From UHGV virus genome UHGV-0125199: a DNA stretch of 64,000 nt; one strand, 5' to 3'. Below, one piece after another: positions 4,002 through 41,114 of the stretch. The stretch is from a virus. Position 1 is the stretch's first letter, and each line of letters starts with the position of its first letter. Both the position numbers and the translations under genes were made by a program. The notes beneath the pieces are model-generated. The model saw only the letters and a program-made list of their open reading frames with translations, was not told where the DNA came from and made no database searches.

Positions 4002-4304
4002 TTACATGCTCCGGTACAAATCTTCATATTTAAATCGCTCCATTTCTTTCTTCTGTTTCTGAATCTTAATTGCCTGATCACAAATAATCTCGCGTAACAT
4101 TTCAATGTCTTGTTTATGCATATCAGTAGACGTATTAGCCATTGTATTTGTTTTTATCAATGAACAAATACACTCCATACATTCTGTCATATCATCAACA
4201 GTAATATCTGATTGACATCCGTTTTCTACCATCAAATATAATTCACTCAAATTTTTGTTATATTGTCTAATTGTATCGAAATTTTCTTCAGATAATTTTC
4301 TCAT
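4002..4304 (-). CDS. hypothetical Cys-containing protein
   Basis: ORF track. The overlapping 3857..4105 ORF probably starts at an internal Met (MKICTGACKNC...). Confidence 0.4.
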   Translation of the reverse strand: MRKLSEENFDTIRQYNKNLSELYLMVENGCQSDITVDDMTECMECICSLIKTNTMANTSTDMHKQDIEMLREIICDQAIKIQKQKKEMERFKYEDLYRSM

Positions 4305-5230
4305 TATTCACACCTCGCTTTATCACACTCATGAAATCTTAATAACATGTTATATTTTTCTTTGCCAAATATGTTTTTCCATTTATTTTTAGTTTTTTCC
4401 GTGTTCCAATTAAAAGGCATCATGTGATAATTAATTAAAAAACAACAATCTAACAAAAAATCATCGGTATTATATTCTTCAAATGGATTATGTAATGTTG
4501 TTAAAACACAATACGATCCGACGTTTTCATGTCCAAAATAATGAGCAATCCCATTTTCATCAATCGTCTGTGTGCACAATTTACCAAAATCATGTATTTT
4601 TGCACCAAGAAGAAAACCGCTTTTATATACATCATAAGGATGAGCCAAATCTGAAAACTTGTTATATGTAAAATCACAATGGTCTTCTAAATACATATTG
4701 TGGTGCGGATTTTTTTGATCAAATCCTGTCATTGATATCATAACTGCATTTGGAAGGATTTTTTCAGCATATGAATATCCCATATCATGAATAATAATTT
4801 CACTAAATCCTTCTTCTTTAAAAGGAATTTGAAATCTTCTTAACTGCTTTTCGAGTACATATTCTGGTACTGTATGTTCTCTATTCTTATTATCTTTAAC
4901 ACAATCTTTGTATTTCTTAGGTACAATATAACAAATCTTCTCAACATCCAATTTTTTCACGTGCTCAACAATCGCGCGTCGTGACTTTATCGTGATATTC
5001 GTTGCATCTGCAATTACATTTTTATTCTTATTTAATGATTCTCTTATTCTCTTATTAAAAATATTAAACACTTTTTCATTATCAGATTGATTTTGGCATG
5101 ATCCAAATAATTCTTCTCTAATTGCATCTGAAGATACAATCTCTGCATTATATTTGATAGCTAAATCTTTTGCAATGCTGGACTTTCCGCTTCCAGAAAG
5201 TCCACACATAATAAATAATTTTGGCTTCAT
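4304..5230 (-). CDS. polynucleotide-kinase-like P-loop kinase fused to an HD phosphohydrolase domain (RNA end-healing enzyme candidate)
   Basis: N-terminus MCGLSGSGKSSIAKDL is a Walker A motif with T4 Pnk-like context. C-terminus carries HD-domain His/Asp motifs (AKIHDFGK, GHENVG). The start abuts the RNA ligase stop. Confidence 0.6.
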   Translation of the reverse strand: MKPKLFIMCGLSGSGKSSIAKDLAIKYNAEIVSSDAIREELFGSCQNQSDNEKVFNIFNKRIRESLNKNKNVIADATNITIKSRRAIVEHVKKLDVEKICYIVPKKYKDCVKDNKNREHTVPEYVLEKQLRRFQIPFKEEGFSEIIIHDMGYSYAEKILPNAVMISMTGFDQKNPHHNMYLEDHCDFTYNKFSDLAHPYDVYKSGFLLGAKIHDFGKLCTQTIDENGIAHYFGHENVGSYCVLTTLHNPFEEYNTDDFLLDCCFLINYHMMPFNWNTEKTKNKWKNIFGKEKYNMLLRFHECDKARCE

Positions 5231-6535
5231 TTACATTGCTTCCTCCATCAGTTCTTCAGCCTCTTCCATATCCGGAACATCTGAAGTATCTTTAATAATT
5301 GATTCAATTACCTTAAACTCAAACACTTTGTCCTTATAAGCTGTAAATGATTCTCTATTGTCAATACGTACAACCACACCTTCAGCAATGTGCGTTCTTC
5401 CAATTTCGTCTGCCGGCATACCAGATAAATATTTATTCACTCTTTCCATTAGATCTTCTTTTGTTGTATAAATAAATTTTTCTAATTCTGGAACATATTT
5501 TACACCAAGTTTATCACACCAAATTTTAACCACTTCCCAAGGAACTTCCATTACTGTTCCATCACCGGTTGTCATAGTCATACGATAAACATACATCTCA
5601 GATTCTCCTGGCTGACAACCATAAGAAAATGTTGTCTCTTTCCCAAACTTCTTTGTAAACTCTTTATCTTTGACTTTTGAATTTGATGCAGAACCCATAA
5701 TTGGTGTAGTCTCATTTACATATCCTACAATTTCGTAAAACACTTCACATCCTTCAGGTAATTTATCCTTTAATAAATCATGATATTTTTTTCTGAATGC
5801 ATTATCAGAATAATATCCATCTGTGCTATTCAAATCTTTAATTACAACTCTTCTACTTCCAGACACAACAGAAATTTCTTTTGTCTGTTTCTGTTTCATA
5901 TGTAATAATTCTCTCAATTTATTGTTCTTCTTTGTGATTTTTAATGTCTTAGCAGTACGAGCAGAAGTTCCATGAAGCTTACGTGTAATATAGATCGTAT
6001 CGCCAGGCTTAAAAGAATTTAAATTATATGCAAGCTGCGCAGTATCTTTATGTTCTTCAAAAAATGGATAGGAAATATTTTCTTTATACTTCTCTTTCTT
6101 TTTATTAGAGTTAATATTACTCCTTTTATTTCCTCTTGGAATATACTTTTTACAAATCTCATGTCCTCCAAGAACTGTAATTTGATCTCCATCTTTCAGT
6201 TTATTAATATCAGTATATTTCGAAAGTGTATCAATTGGTAAAATCAGTCCTTCAGATTTTTCACCTCTTAATCTGATTGCGGTTACATTTCTCTTATTTG
6301 GATCCATATAACCACCAACGTTATTACCGTTTTCATCCTTTGCTCTCACAAGTTTGTTGTCATTTGCATACTCTTCAGAAAGCTGTCCATCAGACGGAAA
6401 GAATACAACCCTCTGTCCATCTTTATAACTCAAATCCACAATTACATTCTGTCCGAATACCTCTACACACTGTAAACGGTCAGCATTGCTATGTTTTCTT
6501 AATCCTTTAAGTGTTGTAATATATCCACAATACAT
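5231..6535 (-). CDS. ATP-dependent RNA ligase (KxHG nucleotidyltransferase motif, Rnl2/Rnl5-like) with N-terminal OB/tRNA-binding-like domain
   Basis: ITRKLHGTSAR matches the lysine-adenylylation motif I (KxHG) of T4 Rnl2-type ligases. EVFYEIVGY resembles motif IV. N-terminal GEKSEGLILPID resembles tRNA-binding OB folds. Confidence 0.55.
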   Translation of the reverse strand: MYCGYITTLKGLRKHSNADRLQCVEVFGQNVIVDLSYKDGQRVVFFPSDGQLSEEYANDNKLVRAKDENGNNVGGYMDPNKRNVTAIRLRGEKSEGLILPIDTLSKYTDINKLKDGDQITVLGGHEICKKYIPRGNKRSNINSNKKKEKYKENISYPFFEEHKDTAQLAYNLNSFKPGDTIYITRKLHGTSARTAKTLKITKKNNKLRELLHMKQKQTKEISVVSGSRRVVIKDLNSTDGYYSDNAFRKKYHDLLKDKLPEGCEVFYEIVGYVNETTPIMGSASNSKVKDKEFTKKFGKETTFSYGCQPGESEMYVYRMTMTTGDGTVMEVPWEVVKIWCDKLGVKYVPELEKFIYTTKEDLMERVNKYLSGMPADEIGRTHIAEGVVVRIDNRESFTAYKDKVFEFKVIESIIKDTSDVPDMEEAEELMEEAM

Positions 6536-8193: not shown

Positions 8194-8439
8194 TCAATCT
8201 ACCACCACAGTTAATCCACTCTTTATATTCTCTTCTGGTTTACTCCACTCTTCATATTCCAAGACTGTATCATCTTCTTCATAGGTGTCTCCATCCATGG
8301 AAATCAGTTTCCCATTCTTACTCGCAGCGCAACCAATGAATATGGATTTTCCGTAATATTTTTCTTTATCTTTTGGAATCTTTAATCTATATGAGATGTA
8401 ATCGTAATCTTTATTTTTAATCAGATCTTTAACTGTCAA
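8194..8439 (-). CDS. hypothetical protein
   Basis: ORF track. Confidence 0.35.
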   Translation of the reverse strand: MTVKDLIKNKDYDYISYRLKIPKDKEKYYGKSIFIGCAASKNGKLISMDGDTYEEDDTVLEYEEWSKPEENIKSGLTVVVD

Positions 8440-8770
8440 AATATTCTTTCACCTCATCGAATCCTTTATAAGTTATTCCTTCTTCAATTGGTTTTAAAAA
8501 ATCGCATAAAAATTTTAAAATTTTCTTACAGTCATCAACTGTTTCCACCTTATCCAAATTCAACTTTGGAGTATAATATGTTCTTGTATTGGACAAACCT
8601 TTTATATTCTCTTCCTCTATATCTTTGCTATGATCAAATGCTCTTAATTCTTCTTTTGATAACCATTTAATCCATGCACCACAATCACTACAATACAATC
8701 CCGTATTGTTACCCTTTTGATCAGTATATAAATCTGTGCTGCCACATTTTTTACAACAATTTTGATACAT
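8429..8770 (-). CDS. zinc-ribbon protein
   Basis: CCKKCGS...CSDCG at the N-terminus. Confidence 0.4.
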   Translation of the reverse strand: MYQNCCKKCGSTDLYTDQKGNNTGLYCSDCGAWIKWLSKEELRAFDHSKDIEEENIKGLSNTRTYYTPKLNLDKVETVDDCKKILKFLCDFLKPIEEGITYKGFDEVKEYFDS

Positions 8771-10542: not shown

Positions 10543-12237
10543 TTACTCTGTCTGTGGATTTATAAAATTTCCGGAATTAATATCCTCATATAACCTATCA
10601 AGTGCAATCTCAAATGCGCCAACACCTGAGAAAAAACTACTCAATTTCAAATTATCAAACAAATAAGGCATAGCTTTATAAAGCTCTACATATATGTAAT
10701 AAAGAACATCTACCACAATTGAATTGCCTGCCTGCTTATACAATTGACTATTTGAAACTCCTACTTTGTGTGCTGCGTCAAAATCTTTATCAGAAAATCC
10801 CATAAGTCTGAAGCACTCCTTTGGAGTTAGTTTGCGAATACGGATTGGAGATTCAATCTTACAAATACCAGTTTCTGTCGCAGTAATAGTTGGACTAATA
10901 TTCCCATCATCCTGGACTCTACCTCTTCTCGTTTTGCTATCTGGATAAGACAAATCTGCAACACCACCAATTTCACATTCGATATATCCCTGTTTTGTTG
11001 CTTGTTTGATTGCAACTTTGTTTCCTTCTCCTTTATTCGTAGTTAATGTTGGAGACAATCCATTTTCCGAATAAACAGACCCATTCATACCATTACCAGA
11101 TGGGTTGATATTCCCAATTTTTAGAACAGCAGTTCCTTCAGATTTTCTGTTGCTAATTCCTCTATCCTCTCTCGCTGCAATGCAATTTGCATATTCGATT
11201 AACTCTGGTTTATTATATGATTTATCAATTCCACATAATACATGTGGCTGTCTTCCACCACCTTGCATAGTCGTTAAAGTAGGACTAATATGACTATCAT
11301 CCCACACGCCTCCGGCATATCCTGTTCCGAAATCTTCTCGATTTACATTTCCAATAAATTTAGGTTGGTCAATTTCTACAACTCTTTTATCACCACATGA
11401 ATCAATTGTTCTTAATGCACCACATACATCATTTTTATAAGTTCGAAGCCCCTCATCTTCTCTTTCTTCACACACAAATTTATCATTTTGACTTTTCTCA
11501 TATTTACTTTCAATACTCGATATAAATTTTTGGGTTTTCTCATCAGAAATATAGAACTTCTCATCGACTTCATCTTCCAATAAATCCTTCAATCTTAATC
11601 CATTATCAAAAGGTTCTGGAAATTCAAACTTACCATTATCCAAATCCTTTTTAATAAATAACAGATACACACGTTCTCTGTTCTGTGGAATTCCATAATT
11701 TTTAGCATTCAGAACCTTCCAATATACGTTATATCCATATTCTTCTAATTCATCAGTAAATAATTTAAATGTTGTGTCTTTAAACTGTTTTCCAACGATA
11801 TTCTTTACATTTTCATAAATTCCAAAATTAGGTCTATTTGATCTAACTACTCGTAAATATTCAACAAGAAGAGATGATCTTGTCTTTTCAATATTTTTAC
11901 TTCCACAATTCGGACAACAATCTCTTTTACTCCAATGAACTGTTAATGGATTATATTCAAAATGCTTTCCATTATCATCCACACAATCTTTACAAGTCCA
12001 CACAGAGCCTTTTTGTTTACCAGCCACACTGAAATCCTGGCACGGTGATCCTCCACAAATCATATTAAAATTATCTAACTCAGTTTCATCAACCTTTGTA
12101 ATATCGCCAAGATTTTTACTTTCATCAACATTATGAATAGCACAATAACTTTTTGTTGCATATTTATCAAATTCACAAAAATTTACAAGTTCCCACTGTT
12201 TATCTGAATTATATTTTTTATCCTTATTTTCTACCAT
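10543..12237 (-). CDS. C5 cytosine-specific DNA methyltransferase with motif I at the C-terminus (apparent circular permutation)
   Basis: GGSPCQDFSVAG (motif IV PCQ), ENV (VI), QNRERV (VIII), RKLTPKECFRLMGF (IX), SNSQLYKQAGNSIVVDVL (X), then LKLSSFFSGVGAFEIALDRL (motif I FxGxG) as the last ~45 aa. The N-terminus begins with the post-motif-I segment EFDKYATKSYCAIHN. The C-terminal translation was re-checked by hand. Confidence 0.8.
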   Translation of the reverse strand: MVENKDKKYNSDKQWELVNFCEFDKYATKSYCAIHNVDESKNLGDITKVDETELDNFNMICGGSPCQDFSVAGKQKGSVWTCKDCVDDNGKHFEYNPLTVHWSKRDCCPNCGSKNIEKTRSSLLVEYLRVVRSNRPNFGIYENVKNIVGKQFKDTTFKLFTDELEEYGYNVYWKVLNAKNYGIPQNRERVYLLFIKKDLDNGKFEFPEPFDNGLRLKDLLEDEVDEKFYISDEKTQKFISSIESKYEKSQNDKFVCEEREDEGLRTYKNDVCGALRTIDSCGDKRVVEIDQPKFIGNVNREDFGTGYAGGVWDDSHISPTLTTMQGGGRQPHVLCGIDKSYNKPELIEYANCIAAREDRGISNRKSEGTAVLKIGNINPSGNGMNGSVYSENGLSPTLTTNKGEGNKVAIKQATKQGYIECEIGGVADLSYPDSKTRRGRVQDDGNISPTITATETGICKIESPIRIRKLTPKECFRLMGFSDKDFDAAHKVGVSNSQLYKQAGNSIVVDVLYYIYVELYKAMPYLFDNLKLSSFFSGVGAFEIALDRLYEDINSGNFINPQTE

Positions 12238-16972: not shown

Positions 16973-17725
16973 TCAACTTTTATCACTCTCGTGTTTAAAA
17001 CTAAACGACGGCATCATTTGCAATTTAAACAAATTCTTTTCGTGCATCTGGTCAATTTTCTTCTTTAATTGTTTATCATCAATTAGACCTGTTCTGATAT
17101 ATTTATCGAGAACATCATATGTAAATCCCAAGTTATCTTCATCTGTTTTATCACAAAGACCATCGGATGGAATTTTCTCAATGAACTCTTTCGGAAGTCC
17201 TAATGCATATCCGACTTCCTTAACTTCCGTAACAGTCAGATTAGACAATGGACTGAAATCACCAACACTATCTCCCCACCTTGTACTATATCCAATCCAA
17301 TCTTCAGATAAATTACATGTATTCGCAACTCTTCCATTTACAGTCTGAGACACAGCATATAATGTAGCCATTCTAATTCGCGCCGGCAGATTGATAGAAG
17401 ACTGTCTGCTCCAGTGATCGTCCAATTCAGACTTCACTTCATGTTTAATATCTCTTACTGCATTGAAAATATTCACCTCAATATTTTCAATTCCAAGATG
17501 ATCAACCACCTTCTTTGCAACATCAATATCTTTTTGTTTACCGTTTGGCATTAGGACTCCAAGCACTCTTTCTTTTCCTAGAGCTTCAACGCAGAGTGCA
17601 GCAACAATCGTCGAATCCTTCCCTCCTGAAATACCAACAACTGCTTTACAACCACTTCCGTTCTCTTTAAAGAAGTTCTGGATCCATTCAATAATTTCAG
17701 TTTTAATTTCATTTGCATTAAACAT
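16973..17725 (-). CDS. nadE: NH3-dependent NAD+ synthetase (NadE, PP-loop ATP pyrophosphatase)
   Basis: GISGGKDST PP-loop (SGGxDS). Colinear matches to NadE blocks (PARIRMATLYAVS; STRWGDSVGDFSPLSNLT; DEDNLGFTYDVLDKY). Confidence 0.75.
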   Translation of the reverse strand: MFNANEIKTEIIEWIQNFFKENGSGCKAVVGISGGKDSTIVAALCVEALGKERVLGVLMPNGKQKDIDVAKKVVDHLGIENIEVNIFNAVRDIKHEVKSELDDHWSRQSSINLPARIRMATLYAVSQTVNGRVANTCNLSEDWIGYSTRWGDSVGDFSPLSNLTVTEVKEVGYALGLPKEFIEKIPSDGLCDKTDEDNLGFTYDVLDKYIRTGLIDDKQLKKKIDQMHEKNLFKLQMMPSFSFKHESDKS

Positions 17726-19215
17726 TAAAATTCTCCTCCATGTAGTCTATCTCTAATTTCTTTTAACGATTGTTCTTTTAATAATTCTCCATCTTTAAAG
17801 ACTGTAATTAACATATTTCCACGTTTTTCATAATCAGTAGCCTGTTTCCATGTAAGCTCATCCTCGTAATAAATACTTCCATCATATCGTGTATATACTC
17901 TGCAGCATCCTTTCTGTGATTTCTTAAAACCACCGTCCTTAGGATTTTTAAAAATTGGAGTAGCTTTTCCATCAATCTCACAATATGTTGCTTTAATACA
18001 AGAACTAAAAGTGTCTCTTGTAAATGGTTTTAATACTCCGTCTTCTTCGATGCACTGAAATGAAAACGACCCAACTCCTAATGCTACATTTGAACACGCA
18101 AATCCATTTTTCATAAGAATTCTGTAAATTTCTTCACATCTCTGTACTGTAATTGAGTCACCGTAAATTGCTTTTACATGTGGATCTAACACTTTATACC
18201 CCTTGCTATTAACTGTCCCACCAAATTCTTCCCATAATTTAAATACAGTTTTTGTTACAACTTCTACACAATCTCCAGAATCTCCACGCATCAACATGCA
18301 TCCGTTATGATTCATGATTTCTGTTTTTAATTGAGGAAGAATATTATCGATGATATTCCAATAATCATAAGAGTCAAGAACTGCTGAAAAACTTGTGTTT
18401 GGATAGATTTCAGTAAGTAATCTTCTTAATAATGTAATCTCGTCTCCATCTACCGCATAATTACTGCACATTACAGAATGTTCTGTGCTAGGACTTCCAT
18501 ATGCAACAGGTTCTTTTGTACAATCACAAAAATAATTCTTTTCAAGATAAGGAATAGTTGGAACGGTTGCTGTATTCAAAAATGATAAACACCACCCAGC
18601 GCCTGCTTTTACCGCTGATTCCAAACACTCTTCTCCCCGGAAGTCAAAGGCACCAAGAGCTTTTGATCTTGGAATATAGTCATCACAAGTTAGACCATAA
18701 TAGTGATTAACGATGCTACGATAGGTCATTCCTACTGTTGCTGCTAACATTGGATGCCACATTTCTGCCGAGATAAGACTTTCTAAACTCTGAGGTAACC
18801 ATGCAAAATCTTTATGTGTATTTGTAATACCAAACATAGGCACATGCATTGGAACAATTGTACCTTCTGGCAATGAAACAATCTCAATTGGCAAATATCC
18901 CAATTTATGTAGACTTTCAATCTTGTCAATTTTATACGCATCCTTACCAAGTGATGCATCCATAATTCTTTTATATTCATAAATAATTTCTTCAAAAGGT
19001 TTGTCAAAAAATTCTTCATTGAAATAATCAATCAGATACGTTTTAATAAACCCCTGTAATCCAAACATTACTACTTTATCCCATCGTTTTACACGACTCA
19101 TTCTAGGAGTAAAATAGGAAACTGATTTTGTAATATTTTCAGGTAGCATTTCTGCATGAACCGCTTTATAAAAGTCAATTAATAACATTGGATTTGTCTT
19201 ATTCGTCATATTCAA
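17725..19215 (-). CDS. nadV: nicotinamide phosphoribosyltransferase family enzyme (NadV/NAMPT; possibly a Namat-type nicotinamide ADP-ribose transferase)
   Basis: LLIDFYKAVH...SYFTPR...VVMFGLQ...LPEGTIVPMHVPMF...FDFRGEE are NAMPT-family blocks. 496 aa. Start overlaps the nadE stop. Confidence 0.8.
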   Translation of the reverse strand: MNMTNKTNPMLLIDFYKAVHAEMLPENITKSVSYFTPRMSRVKRWDKVVMFGLQGFIKTYLIDYFNEEFFDKPFEEIIYEYKRIMDASLGKDAYKIDKIESLHKLGYLPIEIVSLPEGTIVPMHVPMFGITNTHKDFAWLPQSLESLISAEMWHPMLAATVGMTYRSIVNHYYGLTCDDYIPRSKALGAFDFRGEECLESAVKAGAGWCLSFLNTATVPTIPYLEKNYFCDCTKEPVAYGSPSTEHSVMCSNYAVDGDEITLLRRLLTEIYPNTSFSAVLDSYDYWNIIDNILPQLKTEIMNHNGCMLMRGDSGDCVEVVTKTVFKLWEEFGGTVNSKGYKVLDPHVKAIYGDSITVQRCEEIYRILMKNGFACSNVALGVGSFSFQCIEEDGVLKPFTRDTFSSCIKATYCEIDGKATPIFKNPKDGGFKKSQKGCCRVYTRYDGSIYYEDELTWKQATDYEKRGNMLITVFKDGELLKEQSLKEIRDRLHGGEF

Positions 19216-20029
19216 ATACCTCTACTTTCTCATGTTCTTTTGTAAAAATACTATTTGTCGTGAACACTCTGTCAATCAATCCACTACTCAATACTTCTCC
19301 TTCGAGGATTGTATTTTCACAATGAGATACATATAGATAAATCTCCTTTGCTCCCAGTTCCTTTAACTTAATAGCTGAATGATAAAATGTTCCGCCACGA
19401 CTTGAAATATCATCTACAATTAAAATTTTTCTTCCTTTAATCAGATTTGTCATGCCTGAAACATCTAGTCCTTTAATCTCCCCTGTTTCCCAATCGCGCT
19501 TTTTAATACCAAAAGCATAAGGAAGATCAAACATTGTAGAATAACGTTTCATAGCTCCTTCGTCCGGATAGAACATTGTAAGATTATTTGTGCCACCAAT
19601 GTATTCACTTTCAATCGCTTTCCACACATATTTGTCTGGATATTTAATTAAAACTCTATCAATAAGAGCTTCGCTTACAGATGAATGTGGATCTAATACT
19701 GTTACAGAATCAAAATTCAGCCAATTAATAACTTCTGCAAAATACTTTAATGTAAATACATCTTCTGTTGTTTTAACACGATCTTGACGACTGTTTGGAA
19801 TATATGGCATATTCAAGTACAAATTTGTAATACCATGAGAATTAAGGTGTTTGACAATATAAATCAATGTCACCAATTCTTCATTATCTTCAAACAACCA
19901 GGTAATAGTTGCTTCTCTGTAATTTTTAAAATCATAAGAAACATCCTCTTTAAGCAAGAGAGTTCCATCTGGAAATTTCTTTGTATTTACTACTTCTCCA
20001 TTAATTTTAATCATAAGACTTTTCTCCAA
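19199..20029 (-). CDS. ribose-phosphate pyrophosphokinase-like enzyme (Prs homologue; candidate ADPR-PP synthetase Adps)
   Basis: ILIVDDISSRGGTF phosphoribosyltransferase-type PRPP/nucleotide-binding loop. Prs-like size; overlaps the nadV start. Confidence 0.7.
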   Translation of the reverse strand: MEKSLMIKINGEVVNTKKFPDGTLLLKEDVSYDFKNYREATITWLFEDNEELVTLIYIVKHLNSHGITNLYLNMPYIPNSRQDRVKTTEDVFTLKYFAEVINWLNFDSVTVLDPHSSVSEALIDRVLIKYPDKYVWKAIESEYIGGTNNLTMFYPDEGAMKRYSTMFDLPYAFGIKKRDWETGEIKGLDVSGMTNLIKGRKILIVDDISSRGGTFYHSAIKLKELGAKEIYLYVSHCENTILEGEVLSSGLIDRVFTTNSIFTKEHEKVEVFEYDE

Positions 20030-24024: not shown

Positions 24025-24270
24025 TTTATTTACCTCTTTTGATATTAATCACATCGGTATTTACAATCTTATATCACATGCAGCTCACAAACATTTTCAA
24101 ATAGCGACAAATGAAATAGTTTGTTGAATCAACGTTTACAGTTTCTAAATATTCGATTTACTGTAGGTGATATTTGATTATAAACACCGATGAAAATCAT
24201 ATGCAGAACTTTATGTATCTTATTTTATTGGAGGTATGAAACATGTATAGAAATTTATTCCGCATATGAA

Positions 24271-24342
24271 TTGTAGATAAAGGATTTGAACCTTTTCTTA
24301 TGCGCCACACTACATCGTGCTACCATTTACACTAATCTACAA
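24271..24342 (-). tRNA. tRNA-like element / probable pseudo-tRNA (intact acceptor, D and T arms, but the anticodon stem cannot be paired)
   Basis: Minus-strand reading 5' TTGTAGAT TA GTGT AAATGGTA GCAC ... AAAGG TTCAAAT CCTTT ATCTACAA has the canonical GGTTCAAATCC T-arm and a 7-8 bp acceptor. The middle segment GATGTAGTGTGGCGCATAAG does not fold. Confidence 0.3.
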
Positions 24343-24465: not shown

Positions 24466-24538
24466 TGGATCATTCGGGACTCGAACCCGAAACCGATCGG
24501 TTATGAGCCGATTGCGCTCACCATTGCGCCAATGATCC
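24466..24538 (-). tRNA. tRNA-Met (anticodon CAT; could also be tRNA-Ile2/initiator class, not distinguishable here)
   Basis: 73-nt cloverleaf folded by hand: acceptor GGATCAT/ATGATCC; D-stem GCGC/GCGC; anticodon stem ATCGG/CCGAT with loop CTCATAA; T-stem TCGGG/CCCGA with loop TTCGAGT. No CCA is encoded. Confidence 0.9.
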
Positions 24539-25762: not shown

Positions 25763-27167
25763 TTAAGCTATTTGCTTCTTATATTCTTTCTCTTTAGCCA
25801 TGTTCAAAATATTAATTGCAGCATTAATGTCTCTATCATGAATCGCTCCACATTCAGGACAAATCCAGCCTCTTATTTTTGTATCTTTTGTATTTACGTT
25901 CACAAAACCACATTTACTGCATGTTTGTGTTGATTTTTTATATTGTCCAATTGCAACAACCGGTACACCATATTCTTCACCTTTTCTTTTTAACAAAGTA
26001 AGAATTTCTCCCATCGCTGCATCAGATAAATTATCATTTCTCACTCTTGTTTTTCTTGACATACATATCTTTAACCGACAAAGTTTCTATTCCAATAAAG
26101 TCTGATCTTTTTATAACTTCTAACACCATATTCTCCATATGATATTTTCTTTGTCGTGTTACCTTTCTTTCTAATTTTGCTTTTTTAAATTTTGTTTCTA
26201 TGTATCTTTTAGAAGGCTTTAATTCAACATTTTCTTTTCTTAATTCACTTAATCTTTTCCTAAACTCAATATTGCTATACCCTTGTCTTCTGGATAATTG
26301 CCTATTTAACATCTCACGATGTTGACGAACACTTCCGTCTCTACCATTTTTGAATCTAGGATTATCATATTTTGTTCCGTCTGATAAAGTCATCAAAGTT
26401 GAAATTCCAACGTCAATTCCTATTTCTCTTTTCTCTTCTTCTACTTTCACAATCCTATAAATATCTTTCATACATAGCTGTAAAAAGTAATCGCCACAAT
26501 TATCTTTTTTTACAGTTGTTAATATTTGTTGTTTCTTATGTAAATTCACATATTCTTCAAAATTCATCATGCATGATGAATCAAACCAGACATTTTTTAG
26601 ATATCCTTTAATCCCCCTAATCTTTACCTTTCCGATTTTAGCTAAATTAAAATATGCTACATTTTTATTCTCCTCATTAAAGCTCATTTTTCTCAGAAAT
26701 TCTTGATATGTATAACTTGTTCTCGGATGTTTCTTTGAATAATATGGAGGTTTACTGTTCTCAATCGGTCTTTTAACTCCCTTTCCATTTGTTTTCTTAT
26801 TAGAATTTTCTCCACTCACTTGAGCATCCAATCGCTTCGACAAATCACACAAGAAAACTCCATTCTCACCAGACAAAGCACCCGCTGGAATCAATTTAAT
26901 GTCTTCTCTCCTACTTCTTAACACATCCAAATACTGTTTCTTTGCAATAGACTTTACATCCGGAAAATGAACAGTTTGTCCTGCATTCTTTTGGTCTGGT
27001 CTTTCAATTGTATTAACTTTATTTTCAAACATATCGTAAACAGCCATATTACACGCCTTATGTAAAGCCAAAATAATTCTATCTATTAATTCACTCTGCT
27101 CTTTATTCGGATACATTCTAAAATTGAAAGTATATACCGGTATTTTTATAACTTTTTCAACTAGCAT
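25763..27167 (-). pseudogene. tnpB: IS200/IS605-family TnpB (OrfB; RuvC-like nuclease with C-terminal zinc finger), split by a -1 frameshift in an A5 run at about 26051-26055
   Basis: N-terminal ORF has RuvC-I (IGIDVGISTLM) and RuvC-II (IGIETLSVKDM) blocks. The overlapping C-terminal ORF has LSDAAMGEI, CSKCGFV...[19 protein letters not shown]. Deleting one A of AAGAAAAACAAG restores a continuous TnpB. A structured GC-rich region 25650-25760 downstream resembles an omegaRNA/right end. Confidence 0.8.
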
Positions 27168-39998: not shown

Positions 39999-41114
39999 TT
40001 ACCATGATAACCTTTTTTCTTCTACTTTTTGCATTAAATCACTCAAAATTTTCATACCTGTTTCTGTATTACATTCAGAATTAACTCTTCCTGTACTAAA
40101 TGCTTCAAGAATGATATCTCTTAAATCATTTGTTTTCAAGGCAATTACAGGAATGTTATCAATTACTGGAGAAATACCAGCGTCAATTTCTTCAATATAT
40201 TTTCCAACATCGTTGAACGCCTTTGCTCCTTTCTGTGCAAAAATTCCAGAGTACCGTTTTGTTGTTTCTTTATTAGCATGACCTAAGATTGTTTGAAGAA
40301 CATCCAAACAATCTGGATCAAATTGATTAATTTCATGCATAATATATCCAAACGTTTTTCTCATACTGTGTGTACTGATGTCTTTTAACCCATTGAAATC
40401 TGCTGCTTTCTTTAATTCATATCTGAATGACGCAGCTTGTTTTTTTATAGCCTTTTCATACTCTTCTTTTGTTCTAGCATCAATTTTCAAATCTGTATTC
40501 AAAATATCTTCTTTTAAGTGTTCCATAGGATTGATTTTTTCTGTATCACAATACCATTCCAAGTATTTCCAAACAGTCTGACTTACTGTGATTTTAATAA
40601 CTTTATCTGTCTTTTGCTCAATCAGGGTGTCCAAGATGTCCTTTTTCTTTCCATTTTCGTAATAGAAATCAGACCACTTTAAAGATAATGTGTCTCCAAT
40701 ACGTCTAGCCAACAAAATTCCAAGCATAAAGACAAGGAATTCTTTATTCTTGCTATTATCTCTAAAATAATCCATCATGTCCTTAATCTCAGATGTTTTA
40801 TAAAATGGTCTTACCAGTGTTGTTCCAGATTTTTTGGTACTACGAACCACCTTAAATGGAATGTAACATTCTCCATCAAAAATACTTTTAATCCAAATTT
40901 CTGACTTCCCGTTTGTAAATTTTAAAATATTTTCAGTAGAATCTGAATCTTTAATATCATTTTCGTCATCTTCTGTTTCAACAGGATAAAATTTTTCTTT
41001 TTCCATAATCTGATCAAGTTCTTCATTTGTATATACGTTTCCATTCATTTTCTTTTCTAATTTGTCTACTAATTTCATTATAATATACCTCCTAAAATCC
41101 CAATGCTTCTGCAA
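39999..41114 (-). CDS. int: tyrosine site-specific recombinase / phage integrase
   Basis: Catalytic signature RIGDTLSL (Arg I), HSMRKTFGY (H-x-x-R), LGHANKETTKRY (Tyr). Confidence 0.8.
   Translation of the reverse strand: MQKHWDFRRYIIMKLVDKLEKKMNGNVYTNEELDQIMEKEKFYPVETEDDENDIKDSDSTENILKFTNGKSEIWIKSIFDGECYIPFKVVRSTKKSGTTLVRPFYKTSEIKDMMDYFRDNSKNKEFLVFMLGILLARRIGDTLSLKWSDFYYENGKKKDILDTLIEQKTDKVIKITVSQTVWKYLEWYCDTEKINPMEHLKEDILNTDLKIDARTKEEYEKAIKKQAASFRYELKKAADFNGLKDISTHSMRKTFGYIMHEINQFDPDCLDVLQTILGHANKETTKRYSGIFAQKGAKAFNDVGKYIEEIDAGISPVIDNIPVIALKTNDLRDIILEAFSTGRVNSECNTETGMKILSDLMQKVEEKRLSW

What the first reader, a model, noticed from the sequence alone, without database searches (positions are those of the whole stretch)
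10543..12237. C5-cytosine methyltransferase with motif I relocated to the C-terminus (circular permutation)
Motifs IV, VI, VIII, IX and X follow in normal order. The protein ends with a textbook motif I (LSSFFSGVGAFEIALDRL) that resembles a normal MTase N-terminus, including a Met just upstream (AMPYLFDNLKLSSFFSGVG). The actual N-terminus begins with the segment that normally follows motif I (EFDKYATKSYCAIHN). This is the footprint of a tandem duplication followed by terminal truncations. The enzyme is an orphan MTase (no nearby REase), likely anti-restriction. The known permuted C5-MTases (such as M.BssHII) show a different permutation; this arrangement appears unusual.
Basis: seen in the sequence. 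Interest (0 to 1): 0.7.

Follow-up and report, generated by a model that had tools for sequence, protein, structure and literature searches.

The report
Phage cytosine methyltransferase with relocated motif I
A gut-phage DNA cytosine methyltransferase gene really does carry its first cofactor-binding segment at the far end of the protein; this rearranged layout is shared by a large phage and prophage family and has so far been reported only for laboratory-engineered enzymes.

Summary
ORF 10543-12237 (-) encodes a 564-aa C5-cytosine DNA methyltransferase. It starts at motif II, runs through motifs IV-VIII, a multi-module TRD array and motifs IX-X, and ends with motif I plus helix A.

It is not an assembly artefact. 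The same ends occur in more than 100 near relatives, 479 clusters at 50% identity, 76 of 80 IMG/VR loci and 43 of 80 GTDB species genomes. The hosts are gut Clostridia.

After moving the C-terminal segment to the front, the protein aligns colinearly with the multispecific Bacillus phage enzymes M.SPRI and M.H2I.

The cut lies in the helix A/strand 2 loop. This is the topology of the engineered, in vivo active cp35M.MpeI and cp33M.SssI. A 2018 REBASE survey found natural permutants only in the variable region.

Verdict: a functional, probably multispecific, self-protective phage methyltransferase that represents a third natural permutation class. It is a new variant of a known kind. Activity and specificities are untested.

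The parts
10543..12237 (-). Complete CDS of the circularly permuted C5-cytosine DNA methyltransferase (564 aa plus stop)
   Evidence: ORF list; PF00145 at E 2.5e-60; identical 564-aa protein in a 93-member cluster, P0002.
12196..12237 (-). New N-terminal leader, residues 1-14. Variable in length among relatives (0-14 aa) and predicted disordered.
   Evidence: Alignment A2; pLDDT 33 for residues 1-10.
12130..12195 (-). Strand beta2 (motif II, WELVNFCEFD, invariant Glu22) and helix B. This is the segment that follows motif I in canonical enzymes.
   Evidence: Aligns to HhaI 35 onwards and to SPR YELVGFSEIDKYAVKSFCAIHNVDE. AF2 strand 16-21 and helix 25-35 with pLDDT 80-96.
12022..12054 (-). Motif IV, GGSPCQDFSVA, with catalytic Cys66
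   Evidence: Pro65 and Cys66 are invariant in A2.
11899..12006 (-). Insertion of about 36 aa with four Cys (C82, C85, C108, C111; zinc-ribbon-like) inside the catalytic loop between motifs IV and V
   Evidence: Gap between HhaI 92 and 91/93; weak zf-ChsH2 and HypA hits; the four Cys are invariant in A1; AF2 beta hairpins with pLDDT 85-90.
11800..11826 (-). Motif VI (ENV, residues 142-144)
11665..11691 (-). Motif VIII (IPQNRERVY, residues 183-191)
10843..11532 (-). Variable region with a tandem array of TRD-like modules. Three carry the SPT(L/I)T signature (residues 318-323, 395-400, 448-453). Two further module types are present (CGALRT near residue 275, NCIAAREDRG near residue 355).
   Evidence: Sequence. 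Module 366-412 is 63-65% identical to a TRD module of M.SPRI, M.H2I and M.Rho11sI. Modules are gained, lost and swapped among close relatives.
10792..10842 (-). Motif IX (RIRKLTPKECFRLMGF)
10672..10746 (-). Motif X (QLYKQAGNSIVVDVLYYIYVELYKA), the C-terminal helix of canonical enzymes
   Evidence: Aligns to HhaI 288-318; AF2 helix 509-522 with pLDDT above 94; pN/pS 0.14.
10648..10671 (-). X-to-I linker, MPYLFDNL (residues 523-530). This is the join of the ancestral C- and N-termini and includes the conserved Met523.
   Evidence: Pro524 is invariant and Met523 is conserved in at least 90% of sequences in A2/A3; pN/pS 0.11.
10573..10647 (-). Relocated motif I: strand beta1 (KLSSF), glycine loop (FSGVGAFE) and helix A (residues 531-555)
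   Evidence: BLASTP to SPR residues 4-20 at E 1e-5. Ser537, Gly538, Gly540, Ala541 and Glu543 are invariant across 128 sequences. AF2 strand 531-535 and helix 541-555 with pLDDT 94-98. pN/pS 0.10.
10543..10572 (-). C-terminal tail (NSGNFINPQTE) and stop codon. Semi-conserved and dispensable in some relatives. Possibly a remnant of the helix A/strand 2 loop (compare GGNYQLVNF in P0282).
   Evidence: pN/pS 0.27; pLDDT 46-76.

Best explanation
The gene encodes a functional, circularly permuted C5-cytosine DNA methyltransferase of a large uncultivated phage of gut Clostridia.

Anatomy. The polypeptide starts at strand beta2 (motif II). It then runs through the catalytic motifs IV-VIII, an array of target-recognition modules, and motifs IX-X. 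An 8-residue linker follows, and the protein ends with strand beta1, the glycine loop and helix A (motif I).

Folding (inferred). In canonical enzymes the N- and C-termini lie side by side. The C-terminal strand can therefore insert in cis into the centre of the Rossmann-type sheet next to beta2. Together with motif X and motif II (and motif III where recognisable) it would rebuild the AdoMet pocket, giving the same 3-D enzyme as M.HhaI or M.SPRI.

Function (inferred). Like its closest characterised relatives, the multispecific MTases of Bacillus phages SPR, phi3T, rho11s and H2, it most likely methylates several different target sequences on the phage genome. That would protect the phage from host restriction enzymes.

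Origin (inferred). The topology most probably arose once, by in-frame fusion of tandem gene copies followed by trimming of both ends.

What is shown: gene integrity, motif order, family-wide conservation, purifying selection, and a confident HhaI-like model.

What is inferred: cis insertion of beta1, catalytic activity, multispecificity, the anti-restriction role, and the duplication route.
For: Motif order and boundaries:
- establish them.
- No N-terminal extension is possible, because stops lie directly upstream.

Not an artefact:
- More than 100 clusters at 74-100% identity share both termini, including Mediterraneibacter gnavus and Coprococcus isolate genomes.
- 479 clusters at 50% identity match the X-to-I fragment. 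Among the 150 best listed, nearly all do so in a single stretch, mostly at the protein's C-terminal end.
- 76 of 80 IMG/VR loci and 43 of 80 GTDB species genomes have an ORF that ends no more than 45 aa after motif I.

Constraint on the relocated segment:
- The motif I residues S537, G538, G540, A541 and E543 are invariant across 128 sequences.
- In the 13-sequence set of relatives 42-58% identical, they are invariant alongside PC, ENV, QxRxR and GN.
- pN/pS is 0.10 for beta1/G-loop/helix A at pS 0.76, against 41 distinct relatives.

Structure:
- The AF2 model has pTM 0.71 and a core pLDDT above 90.
- The C-terminal strand 531-535 and helix 541-555 have pLDDT 94-98.

X-to-I joining is feasible in a solved structure:
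- Plant DRM (4onj, 7l4c) aligns to the X-to-I fragment in one stretch.

Ancestry and function:
- The de-permuted sequence aligns colinearly with M.SPRI and M.H2I.
- It is 30-34% identical to the four Bacillus phage multispecific MTases and shares a TRD module with three of them.

Same topology works in the laboratory:
- cp35M.MpeI and cp33M.SssI start at motif II and end with motif I plus helix A. Both protect plasmids in vivo (PMC5944983).

Phage context without a nuclease partner.
Against: - No biochemical or methylome evidence exists for activity or specificity.
- The model coordinates could not be inspected. Placement of beta1 between beta2 and beta4 is therefore inferred from DSSP strand assignment, high pLDDT and the HhaI-like core. 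It was not seen directly.
- The first AF2 run, with a shallow alignment, failed (pLDDT 36).
- The engineered analogues were poorly soluble or less active than wild type.
- Many relatives have disrupted TRD arrays. Part of the family may therefore be decaying, although the window gene is intact.
- The pN/pS comparisons are all against the window sequence and are not phylogenetically independent.
Confidence: 0.8

Rival explanations
1. Domain-swapped oligomer. The C-terminal beta1/helix A of one protomer completes the Rossmann fold of a second protomer in trans, so the active enzyme is an obligate dimer rather than a cis-folded permutant.
For: The X-to-I linker is short, 8 residues. Some relatives appear split into two ORFs, so assembly in trans may be tolerated.
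Against: The AF2 monomer model packs the segment with pLDDT 94-98. Direct fusion of native termini without a linker did not impair engineered M.MpeI and M.SssI permutants, and the termini are adjacent in solved structures (PMC5944983).
Confidence: 0.1
2. The C-terminal motif I is a vestige of a partly deleted downstream tandem copy. The enzyme lacks a functional AdoMet site and is either inactive or repurposed as a DNA-binding protein.
For: The segment looks like the start of a second gene, with Met523 just upstream. Relatives carry decayed TRD fragments and extra modules after motif I.
Against: pN/pS is 0.10 on the segment, as low as for motif X. The G-loop residues are invariant across relatives 42-58% identical. 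All catalytic and AdoMet-binding motifs elsewhere are intact. The segment is retained in hundreds of lineages, whereas the tail after it is variable.
Confidence: 0.05
3. Motif I is supplied by a missed N-terminal exon or a separate small subunit, and the C-terminal copy is redundant.
For: Natural split C5-MTases such as M.AquI exist (my own knowledge; PMC5944983 refers to naturally bisected C5-MTases without naming them).
Against: In-frame stops lie directly upstream of the ATG. No motif-I-like peptide occurs in any of the six frames of the 64-kb window apart from residues 535-543. Relatives start 0-14 residues before beta2.
Confidence: 0.02
4. Assembly artefact: two tandem MTase genes collapsed or mis-joined.
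Against: An identical 564-aa protein forms a 93-member cluster. The same architecture occurs in isolate genomes, including a 3.56-Mb M. gnavus contig, and in dozens of IMG/VR contigs of 60-160 kb from unrelated samples.
Confidence: 0.01

Closest known systems
Multispecific C5-MTases of Bacillus phages (M.SPRI, M.Phi3TI, M.Rho11sI, M.H2I)
   Same: Phage-borne and without a cognate nuclease. The same subfamily signatures are present (FSG[IV]GAFE motif I, ELV.F.E.DKYA motif II). Identity is 30-34% over residues 14-519. Both have a tandem array of TRD modules in the variable region, and one module is 63-65% identical. The de-permuted sequence is colinear with them.
   Different: Those enzymes have the canonical order I-X. 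They lack the Cys4 insertion in the catalytic loop. Their specificities are experimentally known, whereas those of the window enzyme are not.
Engineered permutants cp35M.MpeI and cp33M.SssI (PMC5944983)
   Same: Identical topology. The N-terminus lies at the start of strand beta2/motif II, the native C- and N-termini are fused, and the C-terminus falls after motif I plus helix A. Both are active in vivo.
   Different: They are man-made from CG-specific monospecific enzymes, and cp35M.MpeI is poorly soluble. The window enzyme is natural, under purifying selection, and has a conserved 8-residue linker.
Natural permuted bacterial C5-MTases of the M.BssHII type (M.BssHII, M.Alw26I, M2.Eco31I, M.Esp3I, M2.BsaI and others)
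   Same: Circular permutation of the C5-MTase fold with a covalent X-to-I junction. The presumed origin is duplication followed by truncation.
   Different: Their cut is in the variable region, so the order is IX-X-I-...-VIII and both structural domains are left intact. Here the cut is between motif I and motif II, inside the AdoMet-binding subdomain. Rare relatives of the window protein (P0282, P0182, P0276) do have the BssHII-like order.
Plant DRM (domains rearranged) methyltransferases, PDB 4onj and 7l4c
   Same: An X-to-I junction of similar length. phmmer aligns query 467-554 in one stretch to DRM 174-255. This shows that such a junction folds.

Membership tests
C5-cytosine DNA methyltransferase (Pfam PF00145, HhaI fold) | Catalytic and cofactor motifs present: I (FxGxG), II (E), IV (PC), VI (ENV), VIII (QxRxR), IX, X (GN) | tested here: met
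   PF00145 at E 2.5e-60. The HhaI alignments cover motifs II-X. Motif I lies at residues 535-543. All are invariant in relatives.
C5-cytosine DNA methyltransferase (Pfam PF00145, HhaI fold) | HhaI-like two-domain three-dimensional fold | tested here: met
C5-cytosine DNA methyltransferase (Pfam PF00145, HhaI fold) | Canonical linear order of motifs I to X | tested here: not met
   The order is II-IV-VI-VIII-TRD-IX-X-I.
C5-cytosine DNA methyltransferase (Pfam PF00145, HhaI fold) | AdoMet-dependent transfer of a methyl group to cytosine C5 in DNA | not testable with these tools
   Requires expression plus bisulfite or EM-seq, or a restriction-protection assay.
Multispecific phage C5-MTases (SPR type) | Encoded by a phage or prophage, with no cognate restriction enzyme | tested here: met
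   The window carries phage replication and nucleotide-metabolism genes. The ten neighbouring ORFs have no nuclease domain. Homologous loci are IMG/VR viral contigs.
Multispecific phage C5-MTases (SPR type) | Several TRD modules in tandem between motifs VIII and IX | tested here: met
   Three SPT(L/I)T modules plus two other module types lie in residues 236-465. One is 63-65% identical to a module of SPR, H2 and rho11s. Relatives differ by insertion or loss of whole modules.
Multispecific phage C5-MTases (SPR type) | Methylation of more than one target sequence by one polypeptide | not testable with these tools
   Module-to-specificity assignment failed. The best-matching module is absent from phi3T, so it is not the shared GGCC module as I had first assumed.
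BssHII-type natural circular permutants | New termini in the variable region; motifs IX-X precede I-VIII | tested here: not met
   The N-terminus is at motif II and the C-terminus follows motif I. The family definition comes from PMC5944983.
DRM-type permutants | Order VI-X followed by I-V | tested here: not met
   Motifs II-V precede VI here. Only the X-to-I junction is shared.
I/II-cut permutation topology (cut between motifs I and II; the class of the engineered cp35M.MpeI and cp33M.SssI, presumably 'Type A' in PMC5944983) | N-terminus at the start of motif II; native termini fused; C-terminus after motif I plus helix A | tested here: met
   Direct comparison with the published cp35M.MpeI and cp33M.SssI sequences.

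The most novel reading that the evidence does not exclude
The permutation may be an adaptive re-packaging rather than a neutral curiosity. It puts both halves of the AdoMet pocket (motifs X and I) on one contiguous C-terminal cassette next to the TRD array.

The gene then becomes three exchangeable blocks:
- the catalytic block, motifs II-VIII;
- the TRD array;
- the cofactor block, motifs IX-X-I.

On this reading, three groups of relatives would be working two-subunit, recoded or cassette-shuffling versions of a modular anti-restriction system, not pseudogenes:
- those whose TRD arrays are interrupted by frame changes or by a single in-frame stop (26 loci);
- those with TRD modules after motif I;
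- those with the alternative IX-X-I-II...VIII order.
Probability: 0.15. Interest if true: 0.75.

Novelty: new variant of a known kind. Interest (0 to 1): 0.58.

Why it matters
Circular permutation is a textbook route to new protein topologies, and DNA methyltransferases are its classic example. For C5-MTases, though, only two natural topologies are documented: the BssHII type and the plant DRM type.

The only systematic survey I found covered 20,677 REBASE entries (PMC5944983). It concluded that all natural bacterial permutants are cut in the variable region and that evolution favours routes that keep the two domains intact.

This locus, and the large gut-phage family behind it, show that nature also uses a cut inside the AdoMet-binding subdomain. 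That is the same topology the survey's authors built by hand and found active.

- It offers a natural, abundant test case for the permutation-by-duplication model, with candidate intermediates in hand.
- It warns that motif-order-based annotation or REBASE-style screens can miss or mis-parse such enzymes.
- It adds a widespread, probably multispecific anti-restriction methyltransferase to the biology of phages of human-gut Lachnospiraceae and Oscillospiraceae.

Tried and rejected
- AF2 with a 27-sequence alignment of sequences at least 81% identical gave a useless model (pLDDT 36). It was repeated with a 128-sequence diverse alignment.
- I first assumed that the TRD module at residues 375-405, nearly identical in SPR and H2, was the GGCC module. 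Comparing all four Bacillus phage enzymes showed it is absent from phi3T, so I withdrew the specificity prediction.
- The profile search meant to collect distant homologues returned mostly the same clade.
- I searched for P0182-like arrangements in IMG/VR. All 80 loci were the ordinary permuted type or split variants.
- The EMBO J 1999 paper on M.(phi)BssHII, which reports TRDs at separated locations, could not be read.
- There is no near match of the window to any GenBank phage.
- Literature searches for a described natural permutant cut between motifs I and II found none.
- The upstream palindromes and promoter-like sites are no more frequent than in shuffled sequence.
Full report
**Observation**

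The ORF at 10543..12237 on the minus strand is exactly as described: 564 aa with an ATG start. An AGAGG ribosome-binding sequence lies just upstream, and in-frame stops directly precede the start, so no N-terminal extension is possible.

Pfam DNA_methylase (PF00145) matches at E 2.5e-60 in three stretches. phmmer against PDB sequences aligns the protein to M.HhaI in three blocks:
- residues 17-77 to HhaI 35-92 (motifs II-IV);
- residues 114-235 to HhaI 91-211 (V-VIII);
- residues 466-519 to HhaI 270-318 (IX-X).

Nothing at the N-terminus corresponds to HhaI 1-34, which holds motif I and helix A.

The last 44 residues align to residues 4-20 of the phage SPR methyltransferase, its N-terminal motif I. 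The match is LKLSSFFSGVGAFEIAL against LRVMSLFSGIGAFEAAL, 65% identity, pairwise E 1e-5. They also align weakly to HhaI 11-30.

A scan of all six frames of the 64-kb window finds no other motif-I-like peptide and no other C5-MTase motif.

**Is it real?**

The identical 564-aa protein represents a 93-member cluster. More than 100 clusters at 74-100% identity share both the N-terminus (MVENKDKKYNSDKQWELVNFCEFDKYA) and the C-terminus (...FFSG[VI]GAFEIALD...NPQTE). They include proteins from Mediterraneibacter gnavus and Coprococcus isolate genomes, annotated only as 'DNA (cytosine-5-)-methyltransferase'.

I searched the 79-residue fragment spanning motif X to the C-terminus against 1.84 billion representatives at 50% identity. 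This gave 479 hits at E <= 1e-3 and 186 at E <= 1e-10. Among the 150 best hits listed, nearly all match in a single stretch, mostly at the end of the protein.

Full-length representatives of 390-885 aa start 0-14 residues before motif II and stop shortly after helix A.

Among fetched loci, 76 of 80 IMG/VR viral contigs (mostly 60-160 kb) contain an ORF with the X-to-I junction that ends within 45 residues of motif I. So do 43 of 80 GTDB species-representative genomes. The genomes include:
- Lachnospiraceae: Dorea, Blautia, Coprococcus, Faecalimonas, Lacrimispora, Enterocloster and Robinsoniella;
- Dysosmobacter, Angelakisella and Ruminococcus;
- Coprobacillaceae.

An assembly artefact and a missing exon are therefore excluded.

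**Is the relocated motif used?**

In an alignment of 13 members 42-58% identical to the window protein, the invariant residues are:
- Glu22 (motif II);
- Pro65-Cys66 (IV);
- Glu142-Asn143-Val144 (VI);
- Gln185, Arg187 and Arg189 (VIII);
- Gly504-Asn505 (X);
- Ser537, Gly538, Gly540, Ala541 and Glu543 of the C-terminal motif I.

The last five, with Asn505 and Pro524, are the only invariant columns in a 128-sequence alignment.

I made codon-level comparisons of the window gene with 41 distinct relatives whose length from motif X to the stop codon is the same.

| Segment | pN/pS |
|---|---|
| Strand 1, glycine loop and helix A | 0.10 (pS 0.76) |
| Linker | 0.11 |
| Motif X helix | 0.14 |
| Last 13 residues (tail) | 0.27 |

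These comparisons share one reference sequence and are not independent. Even so, the signal is that of a translated, constrained segment and not a relic.

**Structure**

A first AlphaFold2 run on a shallow alignment failed (pLDDT 36).

With a diverse 128-sequence alignment the model reached pTM 0.71 and mean pLDDT 71.5. The catalytic core is above 90, and most TRD modules have low confidence.

The secondary-structure string reproduces the HhaI elements in permuted order:
- strand 16-21 (beta2), then helix 25-35;
- helix 509-522 (motif X), then a short turn;
- strand 531-535 (beta1) and helix 541-555 (helix A).

The C-terminal elements score pLDDT 94-98.

I could not inspect coordinates. That beta1 sits between beta2 and beta4 is therefore an inference from the DSSP strand assignment, the confidence values and the otherwise complete HhaI-like sheet.

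There is independent support that an X-to-I covalent junction folds. The permuted plant DRM enzymes with solved structures (4onj, 7l4c) align to the window's X-to-I fragment in a single stretch, whereas HhaI aligns in two separate pieces.

**What kind of enzyme is it?**

The closest characterised relatives are the multispecific methyltransferases of Bacillus phages H2, rho11s, phi3T and SPR. They are 30-34% identical over residues 14-519, with E down to 1e-82.

Moving residues 521-564 to the front makes the protein colinear with M.SPRI and M.H2I. It also raises the global alignment score, from 580 to 622 against M.SPRI and from 717 to 750 against M.H2I. In that alignment:
- the C-terminal segment matches their N-terminal motif I;
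- WELVNFCEFDKYATKSYCAIHNVDE matches YELVGFSEIDKYAVKSFCAIHNVDE.

The cut therefore lies in the helix A/strand 2 loop. A 14-residue leader and a 9-residue tail form the new ends. Both are variable or absent in relatives and are modelled as disordered.

The variable region (residues 236-465) holds three modules with the SPT(L/I)T signature and two further module types. Module 366-412 is 63-65% identical to a module of SPR, H2 and rho11s. Close relatives differ by gain, loss or exchange of whole modules. This is the hallmark of the multispecific phage enzymes.

I could not assign specificities. The best-matching module is absent from phi3T, so it is not the shared GGCC module as I had first assumed.

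**Genomic context**

The window belongs to a large AT-rich phage (32% G+C). It carries RNA ligase, polynucleotide kinase, NAMPT, PRPP synthase, DNA polymerase, a clamp and a helicase.

The ten ORFs flanking the gene have no nuclease domain. There is no near match in GenBank phages.

A self-protective, anti-restriction role is thus the best-supported function. It rests on analogy.

**Comparison with what is known**

A 2018 study from the Kiss laboratory (PMC5944983) engineered permutants of M.MpeI and M.SssI and found ten active topologies.

Its supplementary sequences show that:
- cp35M.MpeI starts at NWEIQHSGMVEW and ends at ...FEAFAGIGSQFKALKNIARSK;
- cp33M.SssI starts at DEYEIVGLAEW and ends at ...FEAFAGIGAQRKALEKVRK.

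These have exactly the topology of the window protein. Both protected plasmids in vivo, and cp35M.MpeI was poorly soluble.

The same paper scanned 20,677 REBASE entries for natural enzymes in which motif X precedes motif I. It found 27, all cut in the variable region like M.BssHII, and concluded that nature favours pathways that leave the two domains intact.

Four further full-text searches found no description of a natural permutant cut between motifs I and II.

The window gene is thus a member of a third natural permutation class, beside the BssHII type and the plant DRM type. It is a new variant of a known kind, not a new kind.

**Origin**

The X-to-I linker (ELYKA-MPYLFDDLKL-SSFFSGIGAFE) is conserved throughout the family, which argues for a single origin. 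Its conserved Met523 sits where the start codon of a downstream copy would be.

Three rare relatives carry the same linker followed by an uninterrupted, canonical I-to-II connection (ALDKLYADIGGNYQLVNFCEFD):
- P0282, 401 aa, a complete gene in an 80-kb contig;
- P0182;
- P0276.

Their order is (TRD piece)-IX-X-I-II-...-VIII, that is, BssHII-like. The window's tail (LYEDINSGNF...) resembles that connection, suggesting a few redundant residues left at the trimmed end.

Other relatives keep TRD-like modules after motif I.

In a different clade, Romboutsia faecis NSJ-18 encodes a 772-aa in-frame dimer of two complete C5-MTases whose halves are 51% identical. This is the kind of intermediate the permutation-by-duplication model requires.

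**Verdict**

- The thing is a real, conserved, almost certainly functional circularly permuted phage C5-methyltransferase, probably multispecific.
- The main uncertainty is experimental: activity, specificities, and cis versus swapped folding.
- Interest is moderate to high for methyltransferase and protein-evolution specialists, and lower for others.

Noticed in passing
window 11899-12006 (-), residues 78-113: A Cys4 insertion of about 36 aa (C82, C85, C108, C111; zinc-ribbon-like) sits inside the mobile catalytic loop between motifs IV and V, at HhaI position 92/93. It is invariant in close relatives, modelled with pLDDT 85-90, and replaced by a short loop in some permuted relatives (P0142, P0215, P0246). 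I know of no described C5-MTase with a zinc ribbon at this position.
   Followed up: partly
relatives P0051, P0158, P0253: Inteins (PF14890, PF13403) are inserted at the catalytic cysteine of the PCQ motif (GGSP-[CF...HN]-CQDFS) in several family members.
   Followed up: no
relative P0159, residues about 388-612: An insertion that looks like an HNH plus AP2 homing endonuclease (my reading of the sequence; no domain search was run). It lies in frame between helix A and the conserved C-terminal tail, with a short LYE repeat at both borders.
   Followed up: no
L005 6900-7400; L083 6190-6960; L085 1273-2045; L119, L122 and L135: In 26 related loci the TRD array is interrupted. A II-VIII ORF and a TRD-IX-X-I ORF are separated by 150-1750 nt carrying TRD modules in other reading frames, or by a single in-frame stop. 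These could be pseudogenes, two-subunit enzymes or recoding; this is unexplained.
   Followed up: partly
L083 4950-6206 (P0282); L085 204-1292 (P0182); P0276: Rare relatives share the window's X-to-I linker but have the order IX-X-I-II-...-VIII with a canonical I-to-II loop. This is a BssHII-like permutation within the same clade.
   Followed up: partly
L153 from nt 1996 (Romboutsia faecis NSJ-18, NZ_JACRWE010000001.1): A 772-aa in-frame tandem fusion of two complete C5-MTase units (I-X)(I-X), with halves 51% identical. It is a natural example of the intermediate postulated by the permutation-by-duplication model.
   Followed up: partly
L091, L034; P0253, P0266, P0196, P0153, P0214: Some permuted relatives carry one or more TRD-like modules after motif I and helix A, in one case between helix A and the conserved NFTKP tail. 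This location should be far from the DNA cleft.
   Followed up: no
window 4304-6535 (-): Adjacent polynucleotide kinase-like (308 aa) and RNA ligase (434 aa) genes, the pair that T4-like phages use to repair cleaved tRNAs.
   Followed up: no
window 17725-20029 (-): Nicotinamide phosphoribosyltransferase (496 aa, phrog_448, E 1e-157) overlaps a ribose-phosphate pyrophosphokinase gene (276 aa). This is a phage NAD-salvage module.
   Followed up: no
window 24270-24342 and 24466-24538 (-): Two tRNA genes: tRNA-Met(CAT), and a second that ARAGORN calls with an undetermined, two-base anticodon.
   Followed up: no
window 26034-27167 (-) and 39999-41114 (-): A transposase-like ORF (phrog_506) and a tyrosine-integrase-like ORF (phrog_216) lie inside what otherwise looks like a large lytic-type phage genome.
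   Followed up: no
window 8429-8770 (-): A 113-aa ORF 1.8 kb downstream of the methyltransferase has weak, sub-threshold hits to a TFIIB-type zinc ribbon and to the restriction-alleviation protein Lar (E 0.005).
   Followed up: no
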